This document shows positions 674 to 17,531 of a stretch of DNA of 64,000 nt, piece after piece (the first letter of the stretch is position 1; every line of letters starts with the position of its first letter). Both the position numbers and the translations under genes were made by a program. The stretch is from NCBI GenBank assembly GCA_018062965.1, contig JAGORG010000001.1:71488-135487 (forward strand). Direction: 5' to 3'. This stretch comes from Minisyncoccota bacterium (GTDB lineage: Bacteria; Patescibacteriota; Minisyncoccia; Phycocordibacterales; UBA5272). The notes under the pieces are model-generated. The model was not told where the DNA came from. It did no database searches and worked only from the letters and a program-made list of their open reading frames with translations.

Positions 674-681
674 GGTGTTCA

Positions 682-1608: not shown

Positions 1609-1659
1609 ACTATAAAGTATACGACACTACACACACTTTCTTTGGTATGTAGTTCACAG

Positions 1660-2448: not shown

Positions 2449-2452
2449 GTGG

Positions 2453-4384
2453 TTAGATATAGACTATAGCACCTCCACCCTGTTTGTAGTACAGGTCATT
2501 ATGTTGTGCCACCTCCTCTGGTACATCTTCCAAGAATTCACTCGGTGCATTGATTTGCTTTTGACCAAAAATCGTTCGCAACTCCGCATAGCATAAATAC
2601 AAGTGTTTTCGTGCACGGGTTACTGCAACATAAAATAGTCTGCGCTCCTCTTCCTCTTCTTCGACGCTTCGTTTTCGGTTGCCAATGTTTTTATGGGGGA
2701 ATAAATCTTGCTCAAGTCCAACGATGAACACATGGTCAAATTCCAACCCTTTTGATGCGTGTACTGTCATAAGACGTACCCCGCCTTTGTCTTTTGTGTC
2801 ATTATCCTGATCTGATTGAAGTGCTGTTTCTTCAAGGAACTGGGTTAATACATCCATACCAACACTCTCGTCATATCGTACTGTAAGAGATACAAGTTCT
2901 CGTGCATTTTCCAATCGTTCCCTGTCTTCTGATGAACCTTCTAGCATTTCCTTTTCCATACCTGAGTCAACGATAATCATCTGCATAACATGAGATAACG
3001 GCTCAGTCGCCAATCTTTCCATAATGAGATCAAGAAACGAATACACTTTTTCTACTTTTGCAGTCGCTGCCGCTGGTATCTCCATGTTTGAAAATATCTT
3101 CGCAACAGTTGTCTTCCCTATCCCCTTTTTTGGCGTCTCAAAAACACGTTTCAGGTCTGGTTGAGATGAACGGTTTACCGCTGCGCGCAAGTAACTCATA
3201 ACATCTTTAACTTCTTTTCGTTCGAAGAACTTTGTGCCAAGGAGGTTGTACTGCACGTTTGCTCGGATGAATGATTCTTCGAGTGCTCGAGACTGGAAGT
3301 TTGCTCGATACAGAACGGCGATTTCTTCAGATGCTACGCCTTCTCCTATAAGTGTCTTACACTTCTCCGCAACCCATTCAGCCTCAGAGAGTTCATCCCA
3401 TGTGGGAACGATGTCGATAAGATCACCCTCTCCTTGAGAGGTGAAAAGATTTTTTTCTTTACGTACTGTATTTTTTTTAATTGATGTGTTTGCAAGAGTG
3501 AGAATATTTCCAGTTGATCTATAGTTTTCTTCAAGTAACACTGTATGTGTTCCAGGGAAGTCATGTTCAAAGTTCATGATATTACGTACGTTTGCTCCAC
3601 GCCAACTATAAATATTTTGATCTGTATCCCCCACTGCGCAAATATTATTGTGGTGAGGATTCACAAGTAATTTTACAAATTCATATTGTGCTCTGTTGGT
3701 ATCTTGATATTCGTCGACGTGCACATACGCAAATCGTTTCTGATACGCCGCACGCACGTCTTCGTGATTCTCAAGCATGGTCACCGTTCTACAAATAAGG
3801 TCGTCAAAATCAACAGCCTTTTGTTGCTTAAGTTCTTCTTCGTAGAGTCTCCATACATTTGCAACTACGTCCATCTGTGCACTGACCACTTTTTCTCTAT
3901 ATGTTGCTACACTCACAAAGTCACTTTTCTCGCGACTGATAATCGAGCGTATTTTTGACGGATCATGCATCTTTGGGTCTATGCCAAGTTTTTCTACTGC
4001 GTTTTTGATAATAGACAGTGAGTCACTTGAGTCAAGAATAGTTGGGTGTTTATGTAACCCAAGACGGTCGCCATATTCTGAGAGAATCATCAGTCCAAGT
4101 GAGTGAAATGTTTTGATAACAGGTGTGTGACGGTATGGGTTTTCTGTTTCTATAACACGCTCCTCTTCTAGACGGTGAACGATACGTTCGCGCATTTCTT
4201 TTGCAGCTTTGTTGGTGAATGTAACTGCGAGTATTGCACGTGGATCCGTACCTTGTTTTACGATGTGCACGATACGTTCTGTTATCGTTTTTGTTTTACC
4301 AGCTCCAGCTCCAGCCAAAATAAGAAGCGGCCCTTCTGTATGAAGAACAGCTTCTTGTTGGCGAGCGTTAAGCAAAACCGTCAT
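2453..4384 (-). CDS. uvrD: ATP-dependent DNA helicase, UvrD/PcrA/Rep family
   Basis: LNARQQEAV...LILAGAGAGKTKTITERI Walker A at the N-terminus. Superfamily 1 helicase motifs present (DEYQDTN, VGDTDQNIYSWRGA, TVHASKGLEFDHVF). Confidence 0.92.
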   Translation of the reverse strand: MTVLLNARQQEAVLHTEGPLLILAGAGAGKTKTITERIVHIVKQGTDPRAILAVTFTNKAAKEMRERIVHRLEEERVIETENPYRHTPVIKTFHSLGLMILSEYGDRLGLHKHPTILDSSDSLSIIKNAVEKLGIDPKMHDPSKIRSIISREKSDFVSVATYREKVVSAQMDVVANVWRLYEEELKQQKAVDFDDLICRTVTMLENHEDVRAAYQKRFAYVHVDEYQDTNRAQYEFVKLLVNPHHNNICAVGDTDQNIYSWRGANVRNIMNFEHDFPGTHTVLLEENYRSTGNILTLANTSIKKNTVRKEKNLFTSQGEGDLIDIVPTWDELSEAEWVAEKCKTLIGEGVASEEIAVLYRANFQSRALEESFIRANVQYNLLGTKFFERKEVKDVMSYLRAAVNRSSQPDLKRVFETPKKGIGKTTVAKIFSNMEIPAAATAKVEKVYSFLDLIMERLATEPLSHVMQMIIVDSGMEKEMLEGSSEDRERLENARELVSLTVRYDESVGMDVLTQFLEETALQSDQDNDTKDKGGVRLMTVHASKGLEFDHVFIVGLEQDLFPHKNIGNRKRSVEEEEEERRLFYVAVTRARKHLYLCYAELRTIFGQKQINAPSEFLEDVPEEVAQHNDLYYKQGGGAIVYI

Positions 4385-4415
4385 AGTAGAGTCAGTCTAC
4401 CACGGCCATATTTTT

Positions 4416-4718
4416 TTATTCAGATGAGGCGGCTCCTTCTTTAAAAGCATTGATAATCCTCTCGCGTGCAGCTATAAACACTTCCTCATAATTCGGCAAG
4501 AGGTGTTTGAGCGATGTTTCGTAGAACTCATTTCCCATTGCAACAGAGGCTTCAAGTGCTTGGAACTTCTCGTCCCCTAGTATGTGTAGTACGTCCAGTA
4601 GAAATTCTTTGTGAACACTTTTTGCAAGGCTCATCAAAATAGCGTCCCGGTCTTCTTTTGCTAAACCTCCTAGGTTTAGTTCTTGTATGAGGTCGTTGTA
4701 GATTACTTCAGGGTTCAT
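4416..4718 (-). CDS. Hypothetical small protein
   Basis: 100-aa ORF, compact spacing between uvrD and the large gene upstream. No recognisable motif. Confidence 0.5.
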   Translation of the reverse strand: MNPEVIYNDLIQELNLGGLAKEDRDAILMSLAKSVHKEFLLDVLHILGDEKFQALEASVAMGNEFYETSLKHLLPNYEEVFIAARERIINAFKEGAASSE

Positions 4719-4726
4719 AGTGTTTA

Positions 4727-7700
4727 TTATACTTGGTATGGGCTATCTTTCTTTTGTAGTTGCGAAGTAATTGCTGCCTGTACACGCTCAAAGTATTCTT
4801 TAAAAGATTCATCTTTCTTAGGTTCAACCTTTGGAAGTTCAGGTTGCACACCAAGCCCAACGCTGTCTTGTGCTTTGATAAGTGCTTTTATTGCACCACA
4901 AAGGTTGTTACGGAAGTCATACGGCACGTTGTCTACTTGAGCGTATGTCTCAGGAACCACAGCTCTTTCTGTGTCACAGTATGCTGCGTAAGGAACGTTT
5001 GCTTTCAAAGCGAGAGTGTTAAATATCGTGTCGTATGTTTGGGTATTTGTTGTAGTCTTATCTTGCGTCTTTGGGCCCATGATAAAAGGTTGTAAATATT
5101 CCTTACTGTTTGTGCGTCCAATCATGCGAGCGATATCTTTTTCTTTAGATTCGCTTACGTTTTGAAACCATTCAGGGTGATTCCACTGAGTTACTTTTGA
5201 AGGGTCTGCCGCTGTTTTTGTAGCTACTGGCGGTGTTGCTGCTGCAGAAACTTCCTTTTCTTGTTTATTTTTAAATCCAAAAACCCCTAGCATTACCGCT
5301 GCTGTTACTGCGACGGTTCCAATGGTTGTCCCAAGGACTCCCCACTTTTTGCGCACACCTTGTTCTATGTTGTTTGCCACTGCACCCGCTCGTTCTAGGT
5401 CTTTCTGAGAAGGTGGCTCTTGTCGCGGTGACTGGTTGCCGCCTGGTTGTTTGGTGTGGGTATATGTAAATGTAGGAGGAGCTTGTATGGCATTAATGTC
5501 TGGTTTTTGTAGATGTTCGTCTATAGCCTTGAAAACCTGTTCAGTTACAGCTGGTATTTCATCAATCAATTTTTGTGTACCAGAAAGAGTCTGTATGAAA
5601 CGTACAGATTTCACTCGCTTGTCATCATCAATCGCAAACGTCCCGTTGGCGCTTTCTCTAAAGAAATCTTCATATGTTTTTGCATATGAAACATAATCCT
5701 CCACGCGTCTATGTAATTGTTCAACAACATTAAGAAGATCACGCTTAATGATATTTGCGCGTATTATTTTAACCGCGTAGTGTGAGTGTGTTAATGACAG
5801 CTCTTGTAAATCTTTTTTCAATCTGTCCACCTCTTTCTGCGCCCATTCCTGAGTCTCGGCTAGTTTTTCGTATACAGCCTCAAAAGCACTCGGCATGCCA
5901 TCAGGTCCCATCTCAGGAGCTGCCTCAGGTTTTTTAGGCTCTTCTGCTTGCTTTTCTTGATTTTGTTGAGTGGTGAATGGTTCGGCTTCTTGTATTGCTT
6001 TTTCTAGTCGTTCCAGTTGGTAAGCGTCTCCAGCTGCACTATAACCACTAACTAAAGTCTCAATATTATTTCTGTCTTCTTTAGATTTAGTTGTTGTCTT
6101 GCCACTTAGTATTTTTGCAAGGGTTACTATATTCCCTTCGAGTTCGGTTTCTACACGTATGCCAGGAATATAGTTTTCATTTCCATCAAGTTCTAGTATT
6201 TTCTTGTATGCTTGCAAGAGTTTCTTGGTGCTTTCGATTTGTTCAACGCTTACAGCTAAGTTGCCATTTTTTTCTCGCATCTGGTCGATAAGTCCGCTTG
6301 CGATATATTTACTGTCCCATTCAACATACAGTTCATAAAGAGCTTTTCTGTCTTTTCTGTTTTCGTTAAAAATTTTAATAAGCTCCCCTACTGGTGGGTT
6401 AGAGAAAAACTCCTTTTTGTTATCAGGATTTGCTTTCCATTCATTTGTTGCTTCTATTCCAGCGAGCGCTTCCTCAAGAGTTAAACGAAGACTATGAGCA
6501 CCATCTTTGCTCTTAAGATAAACACGAGTCATGTCTTTGTCTTGAGAAATCGACTCAATAATCCAGTTGTGAGGTGCAGTTTTTGTTTTGTTAAGCAAGC
6601 TAATAGTGTCTCCCACCTTCAGCCCTTGCTTGTCTTCCTTCTGTTCCTGTGCAGGTTTTTCTTCTGCCTTAGGTTCTTTTTTTGGTTCAGTTACTGTCTT
6701 CTGTTCCTCTTCAGCACGTAAAGCATTTTTGTAGTAAAGATTTGTCTTGAGGATTTCTCGGAGGCTATCTATTGATAGGTTTTGTTCTTCTTTTTCACCA
6801 CCGTCTTTTTCGCGTTCAATAAAAGCAACACCGTTTTCTATTTTTGAAACAGTCCACTTTGCTATTTCAAGACTTTCTTTGTCTTGCAGTGTTATGACTT
6901 GCCCAGGTTTAATAACTCCAATATCTGGAAGGTCTTCAGCTGTTTCTGGTCTTTGTATATGTTCAGTTGGCTTGATAAAGTTACCCTTTCCTAAGTTTTG
7001 TTTCTTTCTCCACTGCGCACGAAGAATGGTGCGAGTATTTTGCTGTGGCTCTTCTTGTACAACTTCTACCTCTGCTGTTTTTGGAGATAGTGCATTTTCG
7101 TAGTACGCATTTAACCGCATGATATCTTTGATGTTTCCTGCCCCGTATGTGCGTACCTCCTCTTTTCCGTTAATTATTCGCTTCAAATGTACTCTACCGT
7201 TTTCAAGACTCTCTATTGTCCAGGTATCAACTTCCCCGGTATCAGCATTTTGAAGCAAAACCTCTTGACCAGGTTCCATATCTGGAAGATATGGTAAATC
7301 TTTTCTCGACTCTGGTCGTAGGATGTGCTCGCTTTTTTTATAAAACCCTTGTTCGTTTAGGTCTGGGTTGGTTGGGGTTTGTATAACCCCCAAATCCCCA
7401 CCCTCAGCTTTTGTTTTTTCTATTGCATCAACAAGAGCGCCTCCAAGCGAAGTGTCTGGGGTTGTTGCTGTATCTTTTGTATTTTTTTCAGCAGGTGAAG
7501 TATTTGACGTATGAACTTGAACAGGGGTAATTTGTGTCAGTTCGTTTTCTAGCGCAGAAACAAAGTCAGCCTTAGCTTCTTTGACTGTATCCGTTTCTTC
7601 ACTTTCCCCCTCTTCTACTATTTTTGATAAGCTCTTCGTTACCATAGTTTCAATGTCTGGACGCTTTATCTCTTTACCAACAAACAAAGAGTCGGTACGT

Positions 7701-8188
7701 TTACCGGAATAAATTTCTCGCTGTGTAGCCATTCTATCTGCTTCGGCACTTTTGGTCCTATCAAGTGCTCTTTGTAGATTCGCCACTTGTTTTTTAAAGT
7801 GTGTATCTAGATCGTTTTTTACAATCGTCGCGATTTGAGCATTTGGAGAGTCTGGGTCTTCTGTTATAACACTGTTTAATGCTTGGTGATATGTATCAAG
7901 TGCACTTTGTGCCCGCTCGCGTCTGTATTCCGGAGAAAGGTAGGTAAAGGTCCCCGGGGTTGGTCTAATTTTGACTCCATTTTTTGTGACTTCTTCAATT
8001 CTTTTTGCTTGAGCGATTCGTTCCTCTTTGGATGCTGGCATATCCACCATCTTGGGTGTCCCGTCAACAAAAGCCTCTTTGGGTACAGTGTCCCCACGTT
8101 TTTCTGCTGCTTTAGGTAGCGGAGGATTCATAGTTCTTGTAGCCCAGTATACGTTATTTTTCAAAGGAAATGCGAGGTTTCTCCACAT
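4727..8188 (-). CDS. Large hypothetical protein (1153 aa): E/K-rich low-complexity regions, three internal ~80-aa repeats, one TM segment near residue 930, and a Cys-containing C-terminal domain
   Basis: Repeats: ILRPESRKDLPYLPDMEPGQEVLLQNADTGEVDTWTIESLENGRVHLKRI..., IQRPETAEDLPDIGVIKPGQVITLQDKESLEIAKWTVSKIENGVAFIERE..., and KVGDTISLLNKTKTAPHNWIIESISQDKDMTRVYLKSK. TM segment WGVLGTTIGTVAVTAAVMLGVFGF. Confidence 0.7.
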   Translation of the reverse strand: MWRNLAFPLKNNVYWATRTMNPPLPKAAEKRGDTVPKEAFVDGTPKMVDMPASKEERIAQAKRIEEVTKNGVKIRPTPGTFTYLSPEYRRERAQSALDTYHQALNSVITEDPDSPNAQIATIVKNDLDTHFKKQVANLQRALDRTKSAEADRMATQREIYSGKRTDSLFVGKEIKRPDIETMVTKSLSKIVEEGESEETDTVKEAKADFVSALENELTQITPVQVHTSNTSPAEKNTKDTATTPDTSLGGALVDAIEKTKAEGGDLGVIQTPTNPDLNEQGFYKKSEHILRPESRKDLPYLPDMEPGQEVLLQNADTGEVDTWTIESLENGRVHLKRIINGKEEVRTYGAGNIKDIMRLNAYYENALSPKTAEVEVVQEEPQQNTRTILRAQWRKKQNLGKGNFIKPTEHIQRPETAEDLPDIGVIKPGQVITLQDKESLEIAKWTVSKIENGVAFIEREKDGGEKEEQNLSIDSLREILKTNLYYKNALRAEEEQKTVTEPKKEPKAEEKPAQEQKEDKQGLKVGDTISLLNKTKTAPHNWIIESISQDKDMTRVYLKSKDGAHSLRLTLEEALAGIEATNEWKANPDNKKEFFSNPPVGELIKIFNENRKDRKALYELYVEWDSKYIASGLIDQMREKNGNLAVSVEQIESTKKLLQAYKKILELDGNENYIPGIRVETELEGNIVTLAKILSGKTTTKSKEDRNNIETLVSGYSAAGDAYQLERLEKAIQEAEPFTTQQNQEKQAEEPKKPEAAPEMGPDGMPSAFEAVYEKLAETQEWAQKEVDRLKKDLQELSLTHSHYAVKIIRANIIKRDLLNVVEQLHRRVEDYVSYAKTYEDFFRESANGTFAIDDDKRVKSVRFIQTLSGTQKLIDEIPAVTEQVFKAIDEHLQKPDINAIQAPPTFTYTHTKQPGGNQSPRQEPPSQKDLERAGAVANNIEQGVRKKWGVLGTTIGTVAVTAAVMLGVFGFKNKQEKEVSAAATPPVATKTAADPSKVTQWNHPEWFQNVSESKEKDIARMIGRTNSKEYLQPFIMGPKTQDKTTTNTQTYDTIFNTLALKANVPYAAYCDTERAVVPETYAQVDNVPYDFRNNLCGAIKALIKAQDSVGLGVQPELPKVEPKKDESFKEYFERVQAAITSQLQKKDSPYQV

Positions 8189-8363
8189 GTGTACACATTT
8201 TTGTGGAGTGTGTACTTGTGGAAAAACCTAGCCCGGTATGCTAGGATAAGATAACACCAGAAAGATCTCTACCTAGCAAGGTAACATCTTGACGGGACTC
8301 TATACCGATTGTCCGATATGCCCCATATAGGGGCATTGCCCGCGCCCATGTCACAAGCCAAAA

Positions 8364-9416
8364 ATGGCTCCCCCTACTATAGTAGTAGCTAAACCCACAC
8401 AACCACTTGTATTTCATATCGTTGCCGTTGCTATCGCTTGTAGCTTTGGTATTGTTCCTGCTAGTCTAAACGCTAGTATTTTTTCAGATTTTGCCGCTCG
8501 TATTAGGTCAGCTATTTTGCCTGCACCAAAAGATATAGAAGAAGCCACCCCCACGATGTCGACAATGAATATCATGAAGCCAGTTGTTGTTGACGAAGAC
8601 GTAACACAAAGCGCCCTTGTTGATGCTTCCTCAAGTCAGGATGCTCTTCAGGTAACAACAGGTACGCTGCGTGTTTCCACCGAAGACATAGACTTTCCTT
8701 TGAATGATGAGATCAATGTGTATGAAGTAAAGAAAGGTGACACGCTTTCTGTTATCGCAAGTAAATATAAAGTTTCAAAAAACACTATTATTTGGGCAAA
8801 TGATTTGAAGTCAGAAAAGCTGACTCCCGGTACAACACTCATTATTTTGCCGATGACGGGTATCAAGCATACGATTAAAAAGGGAGATACAGTTGCAAGT
8901 CTTGCAAAGAAATACAAAGCAGACGTCGATGATATTGCAAAGTTTAACGGTATTGCAAAAGATGCAGAGCTCGCTATTGGAGACATAGTCCTTGTTCCAG
9001 ATGGTGAAATCGCAACAGTTGCTCCGCGTGTTGCGTCTACACCGTCACGTTCATACATAAAAACTGCTCCTGCCGGATTCTTTGTTCGTCCACTTGTTGG
9101 AGGAAGAAAGACACAAGGAATTCATGGAAACAATGGAGTCGATATCGCAGCCCCTCAAGGAACTTCAATCGTTGCTGCTGCAACCGGTCGTGTCATCAGC
9201 GCTCGTATTGGTGGATACAACGGTGGATACGGAAATATGGTTATTATTTCTCACGATAACGGTATCCAAACAATCTATGCCCACATGCGGGATGTGTATG
9301 CTGTAACGGGTCAAACAGTTACTCAGGGTCAGGTTATCGGTACTGTTGGAAATACAGGACGATCAACTGGACCACATCTTCACTTTGAAATTCGTGGAGC
9401 AGTGAATCCATTCTAA
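8364..9416 (+). CDS. Peptidoglycan hydrolase with two LysM domains and a C-terminal M23 peptidase domain (start may be at a downstream Met)
   Basis: LysM-like segments KKGDTLSVIASKYKVSKNTIIWAN and KKGDTVASLAKKYKADVDDIAKFN. M23 motifs HNGVDIAAPQGT...HMRDV...GNTGRSTGPHLHFEIR. Confidence 0.88.
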   Translation: MAPPTIVVAKPTQPLVFHIVAVAIACSFGIVPASLNASIFSDFAARIRSAILPAPKDIEEATPTMSTMNIMKPVVVDEDVTQSALVDASSSQDALQVTTGTLRVSTEDIDFPLNDEINVYEVKKGDTLSVIASKYKVSKNTIIWANDLKSEKLTPGTTLIILPMTGIKHTIKKGDTVASLAKKYKADVDDIAKFNGIAKDAELAIGDIVLVPDGEIATVAPRVASTPSRSYIKTAPAGFFVRPLVGGRKTQGIHGNNGVDIAAPQGTSIVAAATGRVISARIGGYNGGYGNMVIISHDNGIQTIYAHMRDVYAVTGQTVTQGQVIGTVGNTGRSTGPHLHFEIRGAVNPF

Positions 9417-9424
9417 TCTGGTTA

Positions 9425-9467
9425 AAAAGAAATCACGGGGGCCGTACGGCCCCCGTGATTTCTTTTC
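9425..9467. terminator. Bidirectional intrinsic terminator between convergent genes
   Basis: Perfect inverted repeat aaatcacgggggccg-tac-ggcccccgtgattt flanked by A and T runs. Confidence 0.7.
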
Positions 9468-9469
9468 GA

Positions 9470-11029
9470 TTACACCTTGTCTTCGTAAAGTCGTGGTCGA
9501 TATTGAAACGCTTCCAAGATGTGACGTTCTTCTACAGATGGAGAGTATTCAAGATCTGCAATAGAACGTGCAACACGAAGTACTCTGTGATATGAACGAG
9601 GAGAAAGAGCGTATTGTGTTGCTATGTTTTTCATAGAAGCAAGCGCCTGAGATGATAGTTGCGCATGAGCATCTATATCATGTGGAGGTATTTCCTTGTT
9701 TGAATGTATGTGAGAAAGTCCCAATGCTAAGAACCGCTCTCTTCCAAAAGCACGCGCTTTTTGTACGCGATCACGAATAACATCACTCCCCTCACCGACA
9801 TGAGCATGAGAAAGTGTGTCATAGTCTACATGAAGCACAGGCACCCATATATCGATACGGTCAACAATTGGACCTGAGAGTTTGCGTGCGTAGCGTTCTA
9901 TGTCTCCTCGGGTGCATGTGCAGCGTTTAACTTTACTCCCCATGTATCCGCACGGGCATGGGTTCATTGCTGCGACAACAGTACAAGATGCAGGAAATGT
10001 ATATGTTCCTTTTGCTCGTGAAACAACGATCTGCCCACCTTCGAGTGGTTCACGAAGAGATTCGATAACGCGTTTATCAAATTCTGGAAACTCATCCAAA
10101 AAAAGCACACCACGATGAGCAAGAGTAACTTCGCCAGGGCGTGGGTTTGCTCCACCACCGACAATAGAAACATAAGAAGACGTATGATGTGGGCTTCGAA
10201 AAGGCGGGTGTGTAATGATGGCTCCTCCTCCACGTGTTACAGAGTGAATACGAGTTACTTCTACTACCTCTTCTTTTGATAACGGTGGAAGTAGCCCAGT
10301 GAATGCTCGAGCAAGCATAGTCTTTCCTGTTCCGGGTGGTCCATACAAAGCTATGTTATGTCCCCCAAGAGCAGCTATCTCAAGAGCTCGTTTTGCATGT
10401 TCTTGTCCGCGGATGTCTTTGATATCAAGATAAAAATCTGGGCGAACGTATGCAACCTCTTCTTGGGGCGCAACCAGAAGTTCTCTATGTGGAGATGTGT
10501 CATCATCGAGTAGTCCATTAAAATGCTTAACCACGTCACGTAGATTGCGGCAGCCGTATATAGTAAGTCCCTCGACCAAGAGCGCTTCGCGAACATTGTC
10601 TTCTGGGATGTAGAGTGTGCGTATACCGTGCTCACGTGCAGCGCTTGCAAGTGCGAGCATACCTCGCATCGGGAGTATATCTCCAGTGAGAGAAAGCTCC
10701 CCTACAAACCATGTATCAGATGGTTCCCCTACAATTTGTTTTGTTGCAAAGAGGTACGCGAGTGTAATAGGAAGGTCAAAATATGAACCCTCTTTTTTAA
10801 CATCTGCTGGAGCGAGTGAGACAGTTACTTTATGGTTTTCTGTTTTTGGATTTCGTAGTCCAGTATTTTTAAGGGCAGCTACGATTCTGTCTTTACTCTC
10901 GTCGATTGCTTTATCTGGAAGTCCAACAATGGAAAATGAGTAGAGTCCAGGAGATACATCTACCTCGACACGAACAGGTTCACCGTGAAGGATATTAATA
11001 TACGCGCTTCGTACTGTTGTTACACTCAT
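9470..11029 (-). CDS. comM: YifB/ComM family Mg-chelatase-like AAA+ ATPase
   Basis: N-terminal Lon-protease-like region, AAA+ Walker A LYGPPGTGKTML, and a C-terminal region typical of ComM/YifB. 519 aa. Confidence 0.9.
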   Translation of the reverse strand: MSVTTVRSAYINILHGEPVRVEVDVSPGLYSFSIVGLPDKAIDESKDRIVAALKNTGLRNPKTENHKVTVSLAPADVKKEGSYFDLPITLAYLFATKQIVGEPSDTWFVGELSLTGDILPMRGMLALASAAREHGIRTLYIPEDNVREALLVEGLTIYGCRNLRDVVKHFNGLLDDDTSPHRELLVAPQEEVAYVRPDFYLDIKDIRGQEHAKRALEIAALGGHNIALYGPPGTGKTMLARAFTGLLPPLSKEEVVEVTRIHSVTRGGGAIITHPPFRSPHHTSSYVSIVGGGANPRPGEVTLAHRGVLFLDEFPEFDKRVIESLREPLEGGQIVVSRAKGTYTFPASCTVVAAMNPCPCGYMGSKVKRCTCTRGDIERYARKLSGPIVDRIDIWVPVLHVDYDTLSHAHVGEGSDVIRDRVQKARAFGRERFLALGLSHIHSNKEIPPHDIDAHAQLSSQALASMKNIATQYALSPRSYHRVLRVARSIADLEYSPSVEERHILEAFQYRPRLYEDKV

Positions 11030-11650
11030 TTATTTCAGTATACCACTGCGTAGTACGAGCAACCCTTCGGCTGTTGGTGAGATAAGCAATGTGTTTGTTC
11101 CAACAAAACCATACACTACAGTTGTAGAACCAAGTGTTCCAACGCGCATGTTTTGATTTGATTTTGTGAGGTCACTAAAAACAAACATGTCCCCTGGGTT
11201 AGGTTTAAGTATTTTCATACCAAATGATTCTGCGATATTTTCTCCAAAGAGTGCCTCGTTTCGAATGATGTAAGCAAGCACAGGAGAGTAATCACTTATG
11301 GTTATGACATATCCAGGTTCTTTCTTTTCTGTTTGTATGACAAATCGCCCAATTGCATCTTCAAGTCCAGGAAATACTCCGCGAAATGTTGTTGTGGTTG
11401 GTTGTTCTACGACTTGAGTTGGTGGAATATATGCGTCTTTTTGGAAAACATAATAGCCATACCCAAGTCCGATAAGAAGAATAACTATACCAATACCTGC
11501 TATCAAAAATGAGGCAGACTTTTTTTCTTCTGGAACGGTGTTAGTGAGTTCGCCTCCTGTTGCAGCGATTGTTGTGATGTTTGCCTCTTTGCGTTTTATC
11601 TCTTCAGAGATATCGTGTTCAAACGTTTCTATTTTAGGTGTTGCGTCCAT
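11030..11650 (-). CDS. Hypothetical single-pass membrane protein
   Basis: 206-aa ORF whose stop abuts the comM start. TM segment FLIAGIGIVILLIGLGYGYYVF. Confidence 0.55.
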   Translation of the reverse strand: MDATPKIETFEHDISEEIKRKEANITTIAATGGELTNTVPEEKKSASFLIAGIGIVILLIGLGYGYYVFQKDAYIPPTQVVEQPTTTTFRGVFPGLEDAIGRFVIQTEKKEPGYVITISDYSPVLAYIIRNEALFGENIAESFGMKILKPNPGDMFVFSDLTKSNQNMRVGTLGSTTVVYGFVGTNTLLISPTAEGLLVLRSGILK

Positions 11651-11725
11651 CTATACAGTATAGCAGGAGGTTTTTGTAGGTATAAAGAAACAGGAGCGAT
11701 GTCGTAGACATCGCTCCTGTTTCTT

Positions 11726-12331
11726 TTATTCTCCAGGAACTATTCCTAGGTTTTCATCCGAGTATTCTTCGACATGTGGCTGCTTTTTGCCGCTACGAAC
11801 TTTTTTGATCGGGCGACGAGTTCTGTAACCAATGAGGAATTTTTCAGGGTGGTCGCACATATCGATAAAGTCTTCACACGCTTCTCGAAGTTTTGTAGAA
11901 GATGATCTTCCAAAAGAAATAACTTCTACCTGCACACCAAAGTGCTCTTTGAGAAATGTTACAAGAGGCACAAAGTCTCCATCCCCTGTTGCCAGGATAA
12001 TGGTGTCTACTTTTGGTGCGAGACGTATTGCGTCCACCGCAAGTCCCACATCCCAATCTGCTTTCTTTGCTCCGCCATAAAAGATTTGAAGGTCTTTTGT
12101 TTTGGTTTCGATGCCGATTTTTGTAAGAGCTTCAAAGAATTGTGTTTCATCCCCCGCTTCTGTGGTGATTACATACGCAAGTGCACGAATGAGTTTTCGT
12201 GTCCCTACAGATTCCTTCATGATCGCTCCGAAGTTCACTTTTGAATTATAAAGATTTTTTGCACTGTGATACAGATTTTGTGTATCGATAAAAACTGCGA
12301 CGCGCTGGTCGTTGTGTTTGATAACTGACAT
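11726..12331 (-). CDS. NYN-domain (LabA/DUF88-like, PIN-related) protein
   Basis: VAVFIDTQNLYHSAKNL...IILATGDGDFVPLV matches the NYN/LabA nuclease-fold signature. Confidence 0.75.
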   Translation of the reverse strand: MSVIKHNDQRVAVFIDTQNLYHSAKNLYNSKVNFGAIMKESVGTRKLIRALAYVITTEAGDETQFFEALTKIGIETKTKDLQIFYGGAKKADWDVGLAVDAIRLAPKVDTIILATGDGDFVPLVTFLKEHFGVQVEVISFGRSSSTKLREACEDFIDMCDHPEKFLIGYRTRRPIKKVRSGKKQPHVEEYSDENLGIVPGE

Positions 12332-12445
12332 ATTGATAGGTGATAGGCACTAGTTTGTAGTTGATAGTGTATATACAAAAATGCAACAACTACTGCCTTT
12401 TTAAAATTAAAAAATAGAAACCTATAGTTAGTATAGCGTACTACT

Positions 12446-12480
12446 AAAGTAAAGAGCGCCTGTTGGCGCTCTTTACTGTT
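12446..12480 (-). terminator. Hairpin immediately 3' of rpsO
   Basis: gtaaagagcgcc-tgtt-ggcgctctttac inverted repeat adjacent to the rpsO stop. Weak T-run. Confidence 0.4.
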
Positions 12481-12482
12481 GA

Positions 12483-12746
12483 TTACTTGAGTCCGAGCTT
12501 TGTAACAACAGCTGTATATCGCTTCTTGTTACTTGCTGCTAGATACTTGAGGTGAGTTCTGCGGTCAGCAACCATTTGGATAAGTCCACGACGAGAGTGA
12601 TTATCCTTCTTGTGTGTCTTCAAATGGTTTGTGAGTTCTGTAATTTTCTTCGTCAAAAGAGACACCTGAACCTCAGGAGATCCAGTATCTTTTTCGTGAA
12701 TTTGAACGTTTTTGATGGCTGTTGCCTTTTTTCGTGCCGAAAGCAT
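12483..12746 (-). CDS. rpsO: 30S ribosomal protein S15
   Basis: 87 aa. TGSPEVQVSLLTKKITELTNHLKTHKKDNHSRRGL is the conserved S15 core. Confidence 0.95.
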   Translation of the reverse strand: MLSARKKATAIKNVQIHEKDTGSPEVQVSLLTKKITELTNHLKTHKKDNHSRRGLIQMVADRRTHLKYLAASNKKRYTAVVTKLGLK

Positions 12747-12860
12747 AGTAGTGCTATTGATTAACTATAAAATATATTGTATCACACATCTCCAGAAAAA
12801 GCAAGCCCTCTTTAGGTTTTATATATCAAGTAAGATCTTCCCAGGATAACCTTGTAAATA

Positions 12861-12888
12861 TTGACATATTTGTATATTATAGTATAAT
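12861..12888 (+). promoter_or_regulatory. Consensus sigma70-type promoter (TTGACA-16 nt-TATAAT) for the HTH/GHKL gene pair, followed by CTAG-type palindromes
   Basis: TTGACA at 12861-12866 and TATAAT at 12883-12888. Downstream inverted repeats TCTAGTTTTTACTAGA and TTCTAGAA lie before the ATG at 12968. Confidence 0.55.
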
Positions 12889-12967
12889 GCAAACTAGGAT
12901 CTAGTTTTTACTAGAACTGGGTTTCTGTACATTTACAACCTCATTGTTCTAGAAAGGACAATACATC

Positions 12968-13705
12968 ATGAGTTCAGTAAAGATCACTGGTCCGTTTGTG
13001 GACATTTTGAAGCAGTTTTCACTGGAACATCGCCTTGGTCACGGGGAAGCTGGCAATAGCGAGCGTCTCGCGGTCTTGTGTAATGTGTTGGACGCTCCGC
13101 GCTCAACAGTTGAAAACTGGTTCAAAAACGACATCACACCCACCTCTGGAAATATGCGCAAAGTTGAACTAATGCTCTCTTTGTGTGGGTATGAATCAGA
13201 AGAACGAAGAAGTTTTTCCCCGATGATTCGCCTCTTTGTTGACACACTTACCACTACGGTTTCTATTGAAGAAGCCGCCCAACAGTTGGGTGGCACTTCG
13301 GAGAATATCAAGAACTGGGTTCGCGGCACAAGTCAACCCAAAAATGTGCAAGACATCATTGCTTTCAACGACTTGCATACCAGTCAACGTGTCGCCAAAG
13401 TCAAAGAGTGGCGTCGTTGTCTTGAGGATGGTGGCTTTATTGTTGCGGTATCGAAAACCGAAGAAGTAGTTTTGGTAAAAGCAACTTCGGTTCCTGGTGA
13501 GAACGAGAAAGTCGACATGCAACAAATTGATCAAGCGATTGCTCACCAAGCGAAAGCCTTGCTTTCGATGATTCGTTCCTCTGACGTTCTTGCGAACGGC
13601 GCGAGAAAAAAAACCATCCGCCAAGCTGTCGGTTACGACGACTTGGCAAAGCTTGTTGGGGATCTTCAACGGATCTCTATGGCAGACTTCAACTTTACAA
13701 ACTGA
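12968..13705 (+). CDS. Hypothetical protein with two HTH-like segments, the upstream partner of the GHKL ATPase
   Basis: Segments LAVLCNVLDAPRSTVENWFKNDITPTSGNMRKVELML and AAQQLGGTSENIKNWVRGTSQPKNVQDII resemble XRE-type HTH (my reading, not profile-verified). GC is elevated compared with flanking genes. Confidence 0.55.
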   Translation: MSSVKITGPFVDILKQFSLEHRLGHGEAGNSERLAVLCNVLDAPRSTVENWFKNDITPTSGNMRKVELMLSLCGYESEERRSFSPMIRLFVDTLTTTVSIEEAAQQLGGTSENIKNWVRGTSQPKNVQDIIAFNDLHTSQRVAKVKEWRRCLEDGGFIVAVSKTEEVVLVKATSVPGENEKVDMQQIDQAIAHQAKALLSMIRSSDVLANGARKKTIRQAVGYDDLAKLVGDLQRISMADFNFTN

Positions 13706-13716
13706 GGAGAATAGTA

Positions 13717-15375
13717 ATGAACCAAAAGCGACAACAAGTTACATCAGCTGTACTCCGTCCCCATCGTATGGGGTTGGTGTTCAAATCTGTTGCGGATACG
13801 TACCCAACCCTCCGACTCAGCATTCAGGAGCTTATTCAGAACTCTATTGACGTTGACGCCAAAAACATCGAAGTCATCATTAACGCGCAAGGCAACTTCG
13901 TGGTTGTGCATGACAACGGTTCTGGTGCAACGAAGAATGACTTCAATCAAGCACTGCAGTCTGTCCTCAAGTCAAGCAAAGACAAAGACAAGTTCGGCCG
14001 CTTTGGTCGTGGTACCATCTCCCCACTTACAAAGTGCAGGGAGTTTACCTTTATGTCACGCGGCAGGACGGGCCCCTCCCACAGATGGACGTTCCATTGC
14101 AAGGAGATTCTGGAGTCAGAAGACTTTCCTCAGATCCCTTGCGAAGACGTTGGTTCTGGGGGTGGTCAGTGGTGGCGTACGGAAGTACAGCTCAAAGGGG
14201 TCAAGTTTTCTGAAGACGCCGTAAAATACGCGGTTAACCTTGAGGAACTAAAGAATGCCGTTCTGGCAAGCTTTGCGACCCGCATGCGCAAGCTGGGAAC
14301 TGTCGTCAGAATGGCTTATCAACCCGCAAGCGGTAAAGTGCAGGAGCTAACATTTTCTGCCAAGTCCTACGGCGGTGAGAAGCTTCCTGTATGGGTGTCA
14401 GAAGACGAAACGCCCGCTGGGAAAGTCTGCATCAGTCTTTATCTGAACACGAAAGGAACTTCGCCTATACCGATTACTATCGGGCAAACGAGTGATCCTT
14501 TCCGGGTGGACTGGAAAACCTTCTACGCTTCGGTTAACTCGTTTGCAAAACAAAACAAGCGGGTGACCTTCGATACAAGCGGTAAAGAGATCAACGACCT
14601 TTTCAGGTCCGGTCTGCTTACTGGTGAAATTGAGTGTGAGAACATCACGATTCATCCTGAACGTGAGAAGTTCGAGCGCAATGAAGCACTCGACTACTTC
14701 GTGATGATCCTCGAAGAGTGGTTTCAGAAAGTTGGTAAAGATATCTACGCACAAGCGCAGATTCGAGCAAAATCAACCCTGTACCAGGAAGCGGCGCTCG
14801 AAGCAACTAGACGCATCGAAAACCACCCGCTTGTGGCTGAGTTCCTCAAGATGGTGAAGTTTGGTACTGTTGGCAAGGGACACGCTTCGGTGAACGCAAA
14901 GCCGGTCGGTGAAGTTACTTCTTCGTCGGTCAACCTTGGTCGCGATCAAGGTAAAGGCACAAGTGTTCCTGAGGAAGGTTCTACGGTCAACGGTCCGAAC
15001 GATAAGGTCACACGGCCGGGCCAAGTCCCTCTTGTGGTCGACGGACCTGAAGGTTCCAAGCGTACGATTGTGCGCGGGGAAAGCAAAGGGCTGCGTATCG
15101 CTATCGAACCTTTCCCAGGGTTTGGTGGAGTTGAAGCGCCGCTCTTTAAGATGCAGGTGGAAGCTGGGCTTGTAATCATTAACCAGCTTGCTCCTTCCTT
15201 CAACTCTTGTGCAGACCGAGGCAAAAGCCCTTTGCATCGTTACATCGACATGGTCATTGTGGCTGCCCTGCAGTCGACGGTTGCTATGGACCCCACAAGG
15301 GTTCAGAGTGATCTCGAGCAGTACATCCGCTATACCAATACCGCTTTTTTGCGGGGTGACCAGAGAGAACTGTAA
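13717..15375 (+). CDS. GHKL-superfamily ATPase, MORC/HATPase_c_3-like (Bergerat fold) with a large C-terminal region of unknown function
   Basis: N box ELIQNSIDVDAKNIEV, G1 box VVHDNGSGATKNDF and G2 box GRFGRGTIS occur in the canonical order. About 55-58% GC in sampled 60-nt windows against about 40% in nearby host genes. Confidence 0.7.
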   Translation: MNQKRQQVTSAVLRPHRMGLVFKSVADTYPTLRLSIQELIQNSIDVDAKNIEVIINAQGNFVVVHDNGSGATKNDFNQALQSVLKSSKDKDKFGRFGRGTISPLTKCREFTFMSRGRTGPSHRWTFHCKEILESEDFPQIPCEDVGSGGGQWWRTEVQLKGVKFSEDAVKYAVNLEELKNAVLASFATRMRKLGTVVRMAYQPASGKVQELTFSAKSYGGEKLPVWVSEDETPAGKVCISLYLNTKGTSPIPITIGQTSDPFRVDWKTFYASVNSFAKQNKRVTFDTSGKEINDLFRSGLLTGEIECENITIHPEREKFERNEALDYFVMILEEWFQKVGKDIYAQAQIRAKSTLYQEAALEATRRIENHPLVAEFLKMVKFGTVGKGHASVNAKPVGEVTSSSVNLGRDQGKGTSVPEEGSTVNGPNDKVTRPGQVPLVVDGPEGSKRTIVRGESKGLRIAIEPFPGFGGVEAPLFKMQVEAGLVIINQLAPSFNSCADRGKSPLHRYIDMVIVAALQSTVAMDPTRVQSDLEQYIRYTNTAFLRGDQREL

Positions 15376-15399
15376 TCGGCGCAATGCCAGTTACCAACA

Positions 15400-15430
15400 A
15401 AACGCCAGTGCAATGCTGGCGTTTTTTTTA
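15400..15430 (+). terminator. Intrinsic terminator after the GHKL ATPase gene
   Basis: cgccagtgcaatgctggcg hairpin followed by an 8-T run. Confidence 0.7.
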
Positions 15431-15479
15431 TTTTCTACCCACACAGTATTGTGCGACATTCGTAGTACACTTTATAGTA

Positions 15480-16424: not shown

Positions 16425-16536
16425 GTTGCTGATTTTTCTTGTGGTGATAGTATACGATTACGCCCGCTTTCTTTTCCGTGCTACAAGGTATAGTAGAAGG
16501 CTATGCAGTACAAACGTTTTTATGCGGAACTGTTAA

Positions 16537-16953
16537 GTGTGGCGTCCATATACACAAAGGAGATTATCTATGGATACTTCATGGTCTCACACCGTGGAAC
16601 AAATGGATGCTCTCCGTGACATTGGTCTGAAGCATCTTGATATCGTTAAAGTGTGGTCGATGTTGCCGGGGTTTGAAGAGCGGTTTGCTCTCCGGGGTAA
16701 AACTCGTCTCATGGCATTGTGTCGATTCCACAATGAAAAGACACCATCACTTCGTATTTGGCCAAAGAGTCGACGCTTTATGTGTCATGGGTGCCAGGAG
16801 ACGGGCGATGCGCTTTATCTGCTTAAAGTTTTTGAGAAATGTTGCATTGATTCAGAAGAGCTGAGACATCTTTCTCCTCTACGTCGCCAAGAAGAAGTCA
16901 TGTTCTTTAAAAATACACTTGAGAAATATCTCAGGCGTCGCATTTTTCTCTAA
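16537..16953 (+). CDS. Stand-alone CHC2 zinc-finger protein (DnaG primase N-terminal zinc-binding domain-like). Start may be the downstream Met at 16570.
   Basis: ALCRFHNEKTPSLRIWPKSRRFMCHGCQETGDALYLL matches the CPFH-EKTPSF...C-GCG zinc-finger pattern of primase N-termini. Confidence 0.6.
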   Translation: MWRPYTQRRLSMDTSWSHTVEQMDALRDIGLKHLDIVKVWSMLPGFEERFALRGKTRLMALCRFHNEKTPSLRIWPKSRRFMCHGCQETGDALYLLKVFEKCCIDSEELRHLSPLRRQEEVMFFKNTLEKYLRRRIFL

Positions 16954-16976
16954 AAGCCCATACGGGCTTTTTTTTA
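16953..16976 (+). terminator. Intrinsic terminator
   Basis: aagcccatacgggctt hairpin plus a T-run. Confidence 0.65.
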
Positions 16977-17024
16977 TTTGAAACAGATTGAAGTAGTATT
17001 GACACATGTAACATATGTATGTAG

Positions 17025-17040
17025 TGTACTAGCTAGTACA
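17025..17040. promoter_or_regulatory. Perfect 16-bp palindrome TGTACTAGCTAGTACA overlapping the putative -10 of the 17067 gene (operator-like)
   Basis: TTGACA at 16999-17004, 17-nt spacer, TAGTGT, then the palindrome. The ACTAGGA motif is shared with the 12890-12905 region. Confidence 0.45.
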
Positions 17041-17066
17041 AGTTCTTATTTACTAGGAGTTTTTCC

Positions 17067-17468
17067 ATGAACATGACCGCCACCCCCACTGAAGACGAAC
17101 TTACTCTTGTTGCAGCAAAGTTTTTCAACATGGTCACGCTGCTATTCCTTTTGGGTAAAACACCAGAAGAAATCAAGGAAATGTGTGAACACTACTTTGA
17201 TCTTGTTATGAAGCATGCTGACACAGCAAAAGTGCATGTGTTTGTTGATGAAGCAGGGCGTCAACTTAAAGAAGTGTACGTCTCTTTCTCAGATGAACAG
17301 ATGAATGCGGTCAAGGAGTCGCTTGAGTCGTTTAGCCAAAGGCACCCAAACATTCTCGCGCAAGGTGACGCCTTTTTAACAACGAGCTTTGCTCAGTTTA
17401 ACGAGGCCTATCAGTCGTCTTCAGTGCTTATTCAGTGGGTTGATCTACCAGACTTTTCTGGAATCTGA
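17067..17468 (+). CDS. Hypothetical protein
   Basis: 133-aa ORF with the promoter/operator above and an SD-like aggag before the ATG. Confidence 0.5.
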   Translation: MNMTATPTEDELTLVAAKFFNMVTLLFLLGKTPEEIKEMCEHYFDLVMKHADTAKVHVFVDEAGRQLKEVYVSFSDEQMNAVKESLESFSQRHPNILAQGDAFLTTSFAQFNEAYQSSSVLIQWVDLPDFSGI

Positions 17469-17531
17469 TACCATCTGATTTTCCAAAAAGCGTACCCATG
17501 TGCGCTTTTTTATTTTGCTATACTAAGGTGT

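What the first reader, a model, noticed from the sequence alone, without database searches (positions are those of the whole stretch)
12968..15375. Two-gene module: HTH-like protein plus MORC/HATPase_c_3-type GHKL ATPase, GC-rich, under a consensus promoter
The 552-aa protein carries the Bergerat-fold N box (ELIQNSIDVDAKNI), G1 box (HDNGSGATKNDF) and G2 box (GRFGRG) in canonical order, followed by about 400 aa without recognisable housekeeping motifs. It is preceded at a 12-nt gap by a 245-aa protein with two XRE-type HTH-like segments. Both genes run 55-58% GC in sampled windows against about 40% in flanking host genes, so they look horizontally acquired. Prokaryotic MORC/GHKL ATPases paired with DNA-binding or effector partners are recurrently associated with conflict and defence islands. 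This specific pairing is not one I can assign to a named system. It is the best candidate here for an uncharacterised defence or conflict module.
Basis: partly seen in the sequence, partly recalled or inferred. Interest (0 to 1): 0.82.

Follow-up and report, generated by a model that had tools for sequence, protein, structure and literature searches.

The report
Accessory HTH plus GHKL-ATPase gene pair
This is a real two-gene operon found only in ultra-small Patescibacteria, encoding a DNA-binding protein and a MutL/MORC-like ATPase, that has been dropped more than once into the same gap between two core genes; it is a plausible but untested new conflict or defence module.

Summary
Two co-oriented genes, A (12968-13705, 245 aa) and B (13717-15375, 552 aa), lie between a perfect sigma-70 promoter and a strong terminator. 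B has all the GHKL motifs. The GC claim is overstated: A is 47% and B 51% against a 43% background, and the excess is all at third codon positions.

B is a GHKL domain plus an S5-type transducer. Its best fold matches are SMCHD1, MutL and MORC2. A long helix, a disordered linker and a C-terminal domain follow. B reaches no housekeeping family's threshold and no PADLOC system. A has tandem XRE-like HTH domains.

B belongs to an unnamed family of about 390 clusters (50% identity) with E<=1e-30. The few members that carry a source name are from Patescibacteria MAGs. An A-like gene sits next to B in 29 of 29 loci with enough sequence. ATPase residues are 99-100% conserved.

The pair is accessory. 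Of 80 related species with the same ComM-NYN-rpsO|Xer-xth block, none has this pair, and roughly 30-40 show a spacer of only ~125-300 bp. Three B lineages at most 29% identical to each other occupy this same gap, one of them inverted.

A defence function is inferred, not shown: there is no effector nuclease, and the neighbours are housekeeping genes. It is a new variant of paraMORC-like modules. Interest is moderate.

The parts
12861..12888 (+). Promoter of the A-B operon: TTGACA (12861-12866), 16-nt spacer, TATAAT (12883-12888)
   Evidence: It matches 12 of 12 consensus positions. The TTGACA and the -10 box are conserved in the relatives L008, L001, L003 and L012.
12892..12906 (+). Palindrome AACTAG-GAT-CTAGTT directly after the -10 box, a candidate operator for A or a 5' RNA hairpin. 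Further CTAG-containing half-sites lie at about 12911-12918 and 12948-12955.
   Evidence: The sequence was read. Each relative carries a different palindrome at the same position: L001 CCGGTTTTAACCGG, L012 TTCCGGAGTTTTCGGAA, L011 CCAAACTA..TAGTTTGG. The role is inferred.
12968..13705 (+). Gene A, 245 aa. It has tandem XRE-like helix-turn-helix domains (about residues 30-72 and 85-136), a variable linker, and a conserved C-terminal helical region (about 185-242).
13704..13709 (+). Shine-Dalgarno GAGGAG for B, overlapping the stop codon of A
   Evidence: In distant relatives the stop of A and the start of B overlap or abut (L007, L099), which suggests coupled translation.
13717..15375 (+). Gene B, 552 aa. 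[quoted passage not shown]
15399..15425 (+). Intrinsic terminator closing the operon
   Evidence: A 12-bp stem followed by a T run.
12747..12860 (.). Left boundary of the insert. The conserved rpsO promoter lies on the minus strand (GCAAGCCC ... TTGTATCACA, about 12772-12808), followed by insert-specific sequence.
   Evidence: Comparison with 31 empty-site spacers.
15447..15459 (+). Right boundary marker: the 13-mer TATTGTGCGACAT that travels with the Xer gene. It is not part of the pair.
   Evidence: There is usually one copy (0-2 mismatches) just upstream of Xer in about 60 of the 80 related loci. It is inverted in the more distant group.

Best explanation
A-B is a self-contained, horizontally exchanged two-gene operon, so far seen in Patescibacteria, and most likely a conflict module (anti-phage or anti-mobile-DNA).

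Proposed mechanism:
- A is a tandem-HTH DNA-binding protein. It probably represses the strong A-B promoter through the palindrome just after the -10 box, and it supplies DNA recognition.
- The conserved C-terminal helical region of A binds B.
- B is an active MutL/MORC-type GHKL ATPase. Its N-terminal domains dimerise on ATP binding, with R316 from the transducer domain completing the active site. The C-terminal domain holds the dimer together. The dimer could therefore close as a clamp around DNA and compact, trap or silence it, as MORC and SMCHD1 do.

Shown here: the operon structure, the domain architecture, the conserved catalytic residues, the strict A-B pairing, the accessory status, and the repeated occupancy of one hotspot.

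Inferred: the A-B complex, autorepression, DNA clamping, and the defence role.
For: Operon: the promoter, ribosome-binding site and terminator are all present.

B architecture: GHKL plus S5 transducer, with 286-293 residues aligned to SMCHD1 and MORC2 and 221-249 to MutL.

B activity: E38, N42, D66, G68, G70, G99 and R316 are 99-100% conserved in 153 diverse members. Ka/Ks is 0.05.

A fold: XRE-type HTH.

Pairing: an A-like gene lies next to B in 29 of 29 loci with enough sequence. This includes loci where B is only 26-29% identical, and one lineage where the gene order is swapped.

Family size: 392 clusters (50% identity) at E<=1e-30, nearly all of the 150 listed 520-630 aa long and matched over nearly the full length. 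The members with a source name are Patescibacteria or Paceibacterota MAGs.

Accessory status: the window-type pair is absent from all 80 species that share the ComM-NYN-rpsO|Xer-xth block. One species, L068, holds a 26-28%-identical version instead.

Repeated acquisition: three B lineages at most 29% identical to each other sit in this same gap, one of them inverted.

Hotspot contents: other cargo in the gap includes IS110 and IS605 elements and a Cas1 gene.

Evolutionary pattern: A evolves faster than B, as specificity or regulatory subunits often do.

Precedent: paraMORC-type GHKL-S5 proteins are known mainly from restriction- and defence-type operons (PMC2292703), and a GHKL-nuclease Shedu has been shown to be anti-phage (PMC12137116).
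Against: - Neither protein has a nuclease, protease, TIR, membrane or other recognisable effector domain.
- The C-terminal zincin-like fold lacks HExxH in 150 of 153 members.
- PADLOC gives only weak hits to the GHKL N-terminus: MzaB 9e-5 and TmtA 1.5e-4.
- In 17 independent loci the neighbours are housekeeping genes with no recurring defence genes.
- There are no relatives on viral contigs, phages or plasmids.
- A perfect consensus promoter, strong purifying selection and co-divergence with the flanks inside the small clade would fit a useful host function equally well.
- The A model is of low confidence (pLDDT 59), and the A-B complex was not modelled.
Confidence: 0.42

Rival explanations
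1. The pair is an accessory host function rather than immunity. It would be a lineage-specific nucleoid-organising, transcription-silencing or DNA-repair module, in which an HTH factor targets a MutL/MORC-like ATPase to the cell's own chromosome.
For: - The best fold matches are the chromatin ATPases SMCHD1 and MORC2, and MutL.
- There is no effector domain.
- The neighbours are housekeeping genes.
- Purifying selection is strong, and Ks equals that of the flanking Xer gene.
- The promoter matches the consensus and is conserved.
- The pair is retained with its synteny in at least five related lineages.
Against: - The window-type pair is absent from the same locus in all 80 related species.
- Three unrelated versions occupy the same gap. 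This indicates gain, loss and replacement, which is unusual for a chromosome-maintenance function.
- The gene context differs in nearly every lineage.
Confidence: 0.25
2. The pair is a toxin-antitoxin-like addiction module. A would be an XRE-type autorepressor and antitoxin encoded upstream, and B a growth-arresting ATPase toxin that is released when A is degraded.
For: - The layout is the classic one: a small upstream XRE-HTH gene, a larger downstream gene, tight coupling, and a palindrome at the promoter.
- The pair occurs as a solitary two-gene cassette among housekeeping genes.
- A evolves faster than B.
- The pair sits in a hotspot together with IS elements.
Against: - B resembles no known toxin fold.
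- GHKL-S5 ATPases are not known TA toxins.
- At 245 aa, with two HTH domains and a conserved C-terminal domain, A is much larger than typical antitoxins.
- The gene order is reversed in one lineage.
- No plasmid-borne members were found.
Confidence: 0.13
3. The pair is cargo of a Xer-dependent mobile element, either IMEX-like or an integron-like cassette, captured at a recombination site next to the xer gene. This concerns how it moves, not what it does.
For: - Three divergent versions of the pair lie immediately beside the same Xer gene, in both orientations.
- Both sides of Xer are variable.
- A conserved 13-mer lies between the cargo and Xer in most loci.
- The Xer protein passes the NCBIfam XerA / integron-integrase model (226.6 bits against a cut-off of 220).
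- From my own knowledge, not tested here: single-recombinase Xer systems (XerS, XerH) keep dif next to the xer gene.
Against: - No second copy of the 13-mer was found at the rpsO-side boundary of the cargo, in the window or in any cargo-bearing locus.
- The pair has no flanking direct repeats.
- Most members of the pair family sit far from any recombinase.
- Homologous recombination through the highly conserved rpsO and Xer flanks would explain the hotspot equally well.
Confidence: 0.1
4. B is a diverged housekeeping GHKL protein: MutL, GyrB/ParE, Hsp90 or a histidine kinase.
For: The N-terminal 50-100 residues hit MutL, PMS, Hsp90 and TopoVI-B profiles. An HPxR motif in the transducer recalls the HPxK motif of MutL (together with my own knowledge of MutL).
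Against: - All scores are far below the family cut-offs: MutL 31.9 against 180, Hsp90 19.8 against 455.
- There is no MutL C-terminal, Toprim, Hsp90 middle, or HisKA domain.
- The pair is accessory and rare.
Confidence: 0.02

Closest known systems
Prokaryotic MORC / paraMORC1-5 GHKL-S5 ATPases (Iyer, Abhiman and Aravind 2008, PMC2292703)
   Same: Both have an N-terminal GHKL domain with all ATP-binding motifs, an S5-fold transducer that supplies a conserved basic residue, and a family-specific C-terminal extension. Both are sporadic, laterally mobile and encoded in small operons.
   Different: The MORC-specific motif GhXhhpXXRhl is not conserved here. None of the defining neighbours is present: no SF-II helicase, DNA methylase, or Vsr, HNH or restriction-fold nuclease. 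The obligate partner is a tandem-HTH protein instead. The C-terminal domain has a zincin-like fold without the metal-binding motif. The members with a source name are Patescibacteria.
MutL N-terminal ATPase (LN40)
   Different: There is no MutL C-terminal dimerisation or endonuclease domain, and no DNA_mis_repair Pfam match. NCBIfam scores are 5-6 times below the cut-off. The gene is not core.
Eukaryotic SMCHD1 and MORC2/MORC3 silencing ATPases
   Different: Sequence identity is 10-12%. There is no CW, hinge or chromo-like reader domain. Targeting would come from a separate HTH protein.
Shedu type I-D / paraMORC3 (VcSduA; PMC12137116)
   Same: It is a GHKL ATPase used in a demonstrated anti-phage system, where the ATPase controls the activity of the protein.
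   Different: VcSduA is a single protein with a C-terminal DUF4263 PD-(D/E)xK nuclease. B has no nuclease and needs a partner gene.
MzaB (Mza system) and TmtA (Tiamat) in PADLOC
   Same: They have HATPase_c_3-type N-terminal domains. These are the only PADLOC models that B touches.
   Different: The hits cover only residues 35-116 at E 1e-4. The NCBIfam MzaB score is 26.6 against a cut-off of 850. None of the other Mza genes is present, and TmtA proteins are 1000-1500 aa.
Type II toxin-antitoxin pairs with XRE-HTH antitoxins (HipBA, HigBA, MqsRA)
   Different: A has two HTH domains plus a conserved C-terminal domain. B has no known toxin fold.

Membership tests
GHKL (Bergerat-fold) ATPase superfamily | Motif I (ExxxNxxD), motif II (DxGxG), motif III (GxxGxG) and a motif IV Thr, in this order | tested here: met
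   E38/N42/D45, D66/G68/G70 and G94/G97/G99 are 94-100% conserved in 153 members, and T155 is 86% conserved. Pfam HATPase_c_3 matches at 3.9e-14, above its cut-off.
GHL subgroup with transducer (MutL / MORC / topo II ATPase / Hsp90) | An S5-fold second domain that contributes a conserved Lys or Arg to the ATP site | tested here: met
MORC family proper | The GhXhhpXXRhl motif in the S5 domain (PMC2292703) | tested here: not met
   The only similar stretch is G235-KVCISLYLN in the window protein. The Arg position is L, R, K or L in close relatives and is not conserved across the family.
MORC / paraMORC restriction-type operons | A conserved neighbourhood with an SF-II helicase, DNA methylase and/or a restriction-fold, HNH or Vsr nuclease | tested here: not met
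   127 neighbours, and separately 33 immediate neighbours, of 17 loci show no recurrent partner of this kind. A single HNH gene lies next to L007.
MutL | The DNA_mis_repair transducer plus the MutL_C dimerisation/endonuclease domain, with a score above the TIGR00585 cut-off | tested here: not met
   The score is 31.9 bits against a cut-off of 180, and only residues 36-81 match. There is no Pfam match beyond HATPase.
Hsp90/HtpG, GyrB/ParE, TopoVI-B, histidine kinase | A family-specific middle or C-terminal domain (Hsp90 M/C, Toprim, transducer-H2TH, HisKA) and a score above the cut-off | tested here: not met
   NCBIfam Hsp90 scores 19.8 against 455, and TopoVI-B 11.4 against 274. There are no such Pfam domains.
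Known anti-phage systems in PADLOC-DB v2.0.0 | A significant full-length match of the component proteins to a system model | tested here: not met
   A has no hit. B has only N-terminal hits to MzaB (9.3e-5) and TmtA (1.5e-4). Systems described after 2023 were not tested.
XRE/Cro-C1-type HTH DNA-binding proteins (protein A) | A five-helix lambda-repressor-like fold, or a Pfam HTH_3/HTH_31 match | tested here: inconclusive
Zincin-like metallopeptidases (B C-terminal domain) | An HExxH (or HxxEH) metal-binding motif on the active-site helix | tested here: not met
Integrative element exploiting Xer (IMEX) or integron cassette | Cargo bounded by two copies of the recombination site (dif/attC-like) | tested here: not met
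   There is a single copy of the Xer-linked 13-mer per locus, and none at the distal boundary of the cargo. There are no flanking repeats.

The most novel reading that the evidence does not exclude
A-B is the founding example of a Patescibacteria-specific immune or silencing system that works without a nuclease. An HTH sensor would load a MORC/SMCHD1-like ATPase clamp onto invading DNA. The cassette would also be captured repeatedly next to the core xer gene by recombination at the conserved 13-mer site, which would make the rpsO|xer gap an integron-like defence hotspot in ultra-small bacteria.
Probability: 0.1. Interest if true: 0.85.

Novelty: new variant of a known kind. Interest (0 to 1): 0.55.

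Why it matters
Patescibacteria (CPR) have tiny genomes, and little is known about how they deal with phages and foreign DNA.

This study defines a two-gene module with about 390 sequence clusters that no Pfam, NCBIfam, PHROG or PADLOC model covers beyond the generic ATPase domain. The catalytic site is fully conserved and the DNA-binding partner is obligate.

If the module is a defence or silencing system, it would be a bacterial counterpart of the MORC/SMCHD1 clamp acting with a separate targeting subunit and no nuclease. That would bear on the origin of eukaryotic MORC-type silencing.

The rpsO|xer gap also gives a concrete, comparable hotspot for studying gene flux in these uncultured lineages.

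If the pair turns out to be an ordinary regulator, the result is still a clean description of a new protein-family pair.

Tried and rejected
1. Housekeeping assignment of B (MutL, GyrB, Hsp90, histidine kinase): rejected. All scores are far below the cut-offs and only the N-terminus matches.

2. Known defence system: the PADLOC scan of A, B and three downstream genes gave nothing significant.

3. Core-gene reading: at first this looked likely, because the pair is syntenic (rpsO|A-B|Xer) in L001, L003-6, L008-9 and L012, and its divergence lies within the range of the flanking genes. It was rejected after 80 species with the same block showed no window-type pair.

4. GC as proof of foreign origin: rejected. 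The pair is GC-richer than its surroundings in 20 of 21 loci, by a mean of 6 points, whatever the host GC. The offset is therefore a property of the family.

5. IMEX or dif duplication, or integron-like cassette: no second copy of the Xer-linked 13-mer, and no flanking direct or inverted repeats.

6. A conserved third gene or fused effector domain: none was found in 127 neighbours, in 33 immediate neighbours, or in the longest family members and an extended 439-aa A homologue.

7. Phage or plasmid carriage: no relatives in IMG/VR viral contigs, INPHARED phages or PLSDB plasmids. The BFVD fold search returned only generic GHKL proteins such as topo II, rIIA and Hsp90.

8. Active protease in the C-terminal zincin-like domain: rejected, because there is no HExxH.

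9. Technical limits:
- The afdb50 fold library was unavailable.
- Word-based homologue searches badly under-reported the family, finding 7 and 10 hits. Only the exhaustive HMM search showed its true size.

10. Literature: searches for prokaryotic MORC, paraMORC, HATPase_c_3 defence systems and Patescibacteria defence found no description of this pair.
Full report
**1. The observation**

The two ORFs exist as described. A is 12968-13705 (+, 245 aa) and B is 13717-15375 (+, 552 aa). B contains the quoted N-box, G1 and G2 strings in order, and it matches Pfam HATPase_c_3 at E=3.9e-14 over residues 35-129.

A perfect TTGACA-16-TATAAT promoter lies at 12861-12888, and a 12-bp-stem terminator lies at 15399-15425. 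A GAGGAG ribosome-binding site overlaps the stop codon of A, 7 nt before the start of B. This is therefore a compact bicistronic operon.

The GC statement is overstated. A is 46.9% GC and B is 50.9%. The richest 300-bp window is 55%, against a window mean of about 43%. The excess is confined to third codon positions. GC3 is 0.476 for A and 0.548 for B, against 0.364 +/- 0.053 in 47 other ORFs, giving z-scores of 2.1 and 3.5. GC1 and GC2 are normal.

**2. What the proteins are**

*Protein B.* Sequence searches against NCBIfam, PHROGs, PADLOC and PDB hit only the first ~100 residues. The hits are to MutL/PMS, sacsin, MORC2, Hsp90, TopoVI-B, MzaB and TmtA, and all are far below the family cut-offs.

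In an alignment of 153 diverse family members:
- the catalytic Glu (E38), the Mg-binding Asn (N42), the DxGxG and GxxGxG motifs, and an Arg in the transducer loop (R316) are 99-100% conserved, so B is very probably an active ATPase;
- HExxH is present in only 3 of 153 members, so the C-terminal domain is not a conventional metalloprotease;
- the MORC-specific S5 motif defined in PMC2292703 is not conserved.

A profile of 26 A-family members hits an XRE regulator in PDB at E=0.002. Pairwise BLAST also shows an internal repeat between the two HTH segments.

**3. Family and pairing**

Word-indexed searches found only 7-10 relatives. The exhaustive HMM search found 392 clusters (50% identity) at E<=1e-30. 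Nearly all of the 150 listed are 520-630 aa long and matched over nearly the full length, with a sharp drop to generic GHKL hits beyond that. The few members that carry a source name come from Patescibacteria or Paceibacterota MAGs.

I examined loci recovered from assemblies and metagenomes. An iterated HMM for A found an A-like gene directly beside B in 29 of 29 loci with enough sequence. This holds where B is only 26-29% identical to the window protein, and in one GC-rich lineage where the gene order is B then A. No third gene recurs, and no member carries a fused extra domain.

Against the closest relative (L008), Ks is similar for A (0.47), B (0.57) and the adjacent Xer gene (0.60). Ka/Ks is 0.20 for A, 0.05 for B and 0.016 for Xer. 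Both genes are functional, and A evolves about four times faster than B.

**4. Genomic setting**

In the window the pair lies between rpsO (12483-12746, minus strand) and a Xer-type tyrosine recombinase. The recombinase's real start is at 15480, judging from where the homology begins. It reaches the NCBIfam XerA model cut-off.

The same arrangement, rpsO|A-B|Xer, occurs in relatives whose B is 61-95% identical (L001, L003-6, L008-9, L012). In these, the divergence of the pair falls within the range of the flanking genes.

A scan of one genome per species changed the picture. It recovered 80 loci with the orthologous Xer (55-88% identity), and where the contig extends far enough they nearly always show the same ComM-hyp-NYN-rpsO|Xer-xth block. 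None has the window-type pair. In roughly 30-40 of them the spacer between rpsO and Xer is only about 125-300 bp, which represents an empty site. About 30 carry other cargo of 0.6-4.7 kb. That cargo includes RNase HII, DUF454, IS110 and IS605 elements, a Cas1 gene and many unknown ORFs.

Two further versions of the pair occupy this same gap:
- L068 has flanks about 81% identical to the window, but its A-B pair is only 26-28% identical.
- The L096/97/98/101 lineage (Xer 56% identical) carries a third version between Xer and rpsO, in the opposite orientation.

The three versions are at most 29% identical to each other. The pair is therefore accessory, and it has entered or been replaced in this hotspot more than once. 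Elsewhere in the family the pair sits alone among unrelated housekeeping genes.

**5. How it got there**

I tested the idea that the cargo is integrated by Xer. A conserved 13-mer, TATTGTGCGACAT (window 15447-15459), lies just upstream of Xer in most related loci. In the more distant group it is inverted and overlaps the start codon.

However, there is only one copy near each Xer gene, none at the far boundary of the cargo, and no repeats flank the pair. Recombinase-mediated capture is therefore not supported. Exchange by homologous recombination through the very conserved flanks is at least as likely.

The GC3 excess is not a donor signature. The pair is GC-richer than its surroundings in 20 of 21 loci, by a mean of 6 points, across hosts of 33-60% GC. 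I have no tested explanation for this.

**6. Mechanism**

The best-supported reading is a self-contained conflict module, as follows.
- A binds DNA. The palindrome AACTAG-GAT-CTAGTT sits directly after the -10 box, and each relative carries a different palindrome at the same place. This fits an autoregulatory operator that co-evolves with a fast-evolving A.
- The conserved C-terminal helices of A would recruit B.
- B would act as an ATP-driven dimerising clamp on DNA, like MutL, MORC and SMCHD1.

The last two steps, and the defence role itself, are inferred.

Evidence against a defence role:
- there is no effector domain;
- there is no PADLOC match;
- there is no defence-island context;
- there are no phage, plasmid or viral-contig relatives.

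The rival readings are an accessory nucleoid or regulatory function (0.25), a TA-like addiction module (0.13), a Xer-linked mobile cassette (0.10, which concerns mobility only) and a housekeeping GHKL protein (0.02).

**7. Comparison and novelty**

The closest known kind is the paraMORC radiation of GHKL-S5 ATPases, which are linked to restriction-type operons (PMC2292703). One of these, the GHKL-nuclease Shedu VcSduA, has been shown to be anti-phage (PMC12137116).

This family shares the ATPase module and the sporadic distribution. It differs in four ways:
- it lacks the MORC motif;
- it lacks helicase, methylase or nuclease partners;
- it has an obligate tandem-HTH partner and a degenerate zincin-like C-terminal domain;
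- its named members are all Patescibacteria.

No paper found in four literature searches describes it. I rate it a new variant of a known kind. Interest is moderate (0.55), because the function is untested but the system is well defined and directly testable.

Noticed in passing
window 15447-15459 (+); one copy upstream of Xer in most of L013-L092: The 13-mer TATTGTGCGACAT sits just before the Xer promoter and start. It is conserved (0-2 mismatches) across Xer orthologues of 55-98% identity. In the more distant group it is inverted and overlaps the Xer start codon (ATGTCGCACAATA). It could be an operator or a recombination site.
   Followed up: partly
window 12747-12967 and 16425-17531; L013-L092: Both sides of the core Xer gene are variable. 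The rpsO|Xer gap ranges from about 125 bp to 4.7 kb, and the Xer|xth gap from about 40 bp to 6 kb. Cargo in the rpsO|Xer gap includes RNase HII, DUF454, IS110 and IS605 elements, a Cas1 gene, an iron permease and many unknown ORFs.
   Followed up: partly
window 16537-16953 (+) and 17067-17468 (+): The window's cargo in the Xer|xth gap is a 138-aa protein consisting only of a DnaG-type CHC2 zinc ribbon (Pfam 6e-12; weak PADLOC hits to DRT RT-primase models), followed by a 133-aa orphan. Each has its own terminator. L032 has a 35%-identical CHC2 protein in the same place.
   Followed up: no
window 30111-31352 (-): A 412-aa ORF with no Pfam family is the only other strong GC3 outlier in the window (GC3 0.514, GC 50%), which suggests a second atypical or acquired gene.
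   Followed up: no
21 loci carrying the pair (window, L001-L118): The A-B pair is GC-richer than its surroundings in 20 of 21 loci (mean +6 points) whatever the host GC (33-60%). In the window the excess is purely at third codon positions. This is unexplained. It might reflect recombination-linked biased gene conversion.
   Followed up: partly
window 1-13000: Gene orientation switches from mostly minus to mostly plus at about 12.8 kb, exactly at the rpsO|A-B gap. Cumulative GC skew has its minimum at about 8-9 kb. This pattern looks like a replication origin, but no dnaA gene was seen.
   Followed up: no
window 4727-8188 (-): A 1152-aa ORF with no Pfam match at E<=0.001.
   Followed up: no
window 15384-15479: The longest Xer ORF starts at 15384, but homology to all orthologues begins at Met33 (15480). 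The upstream 32 codons overlap the A-B terminator and are probably not translated.
   Followed up: yes
L007 4666-5304 (-): An HNH endonuclease gene lies convergent to, and directly downstream of, a distant A-B pair. This was seen in one locus only, so it is not a conserved partner.
   Followed up: partly
L113 1272-2591 (+): One A-family member is 439 aa instead of about 250. The extension matches no Pfam family.
   Followed up: partly
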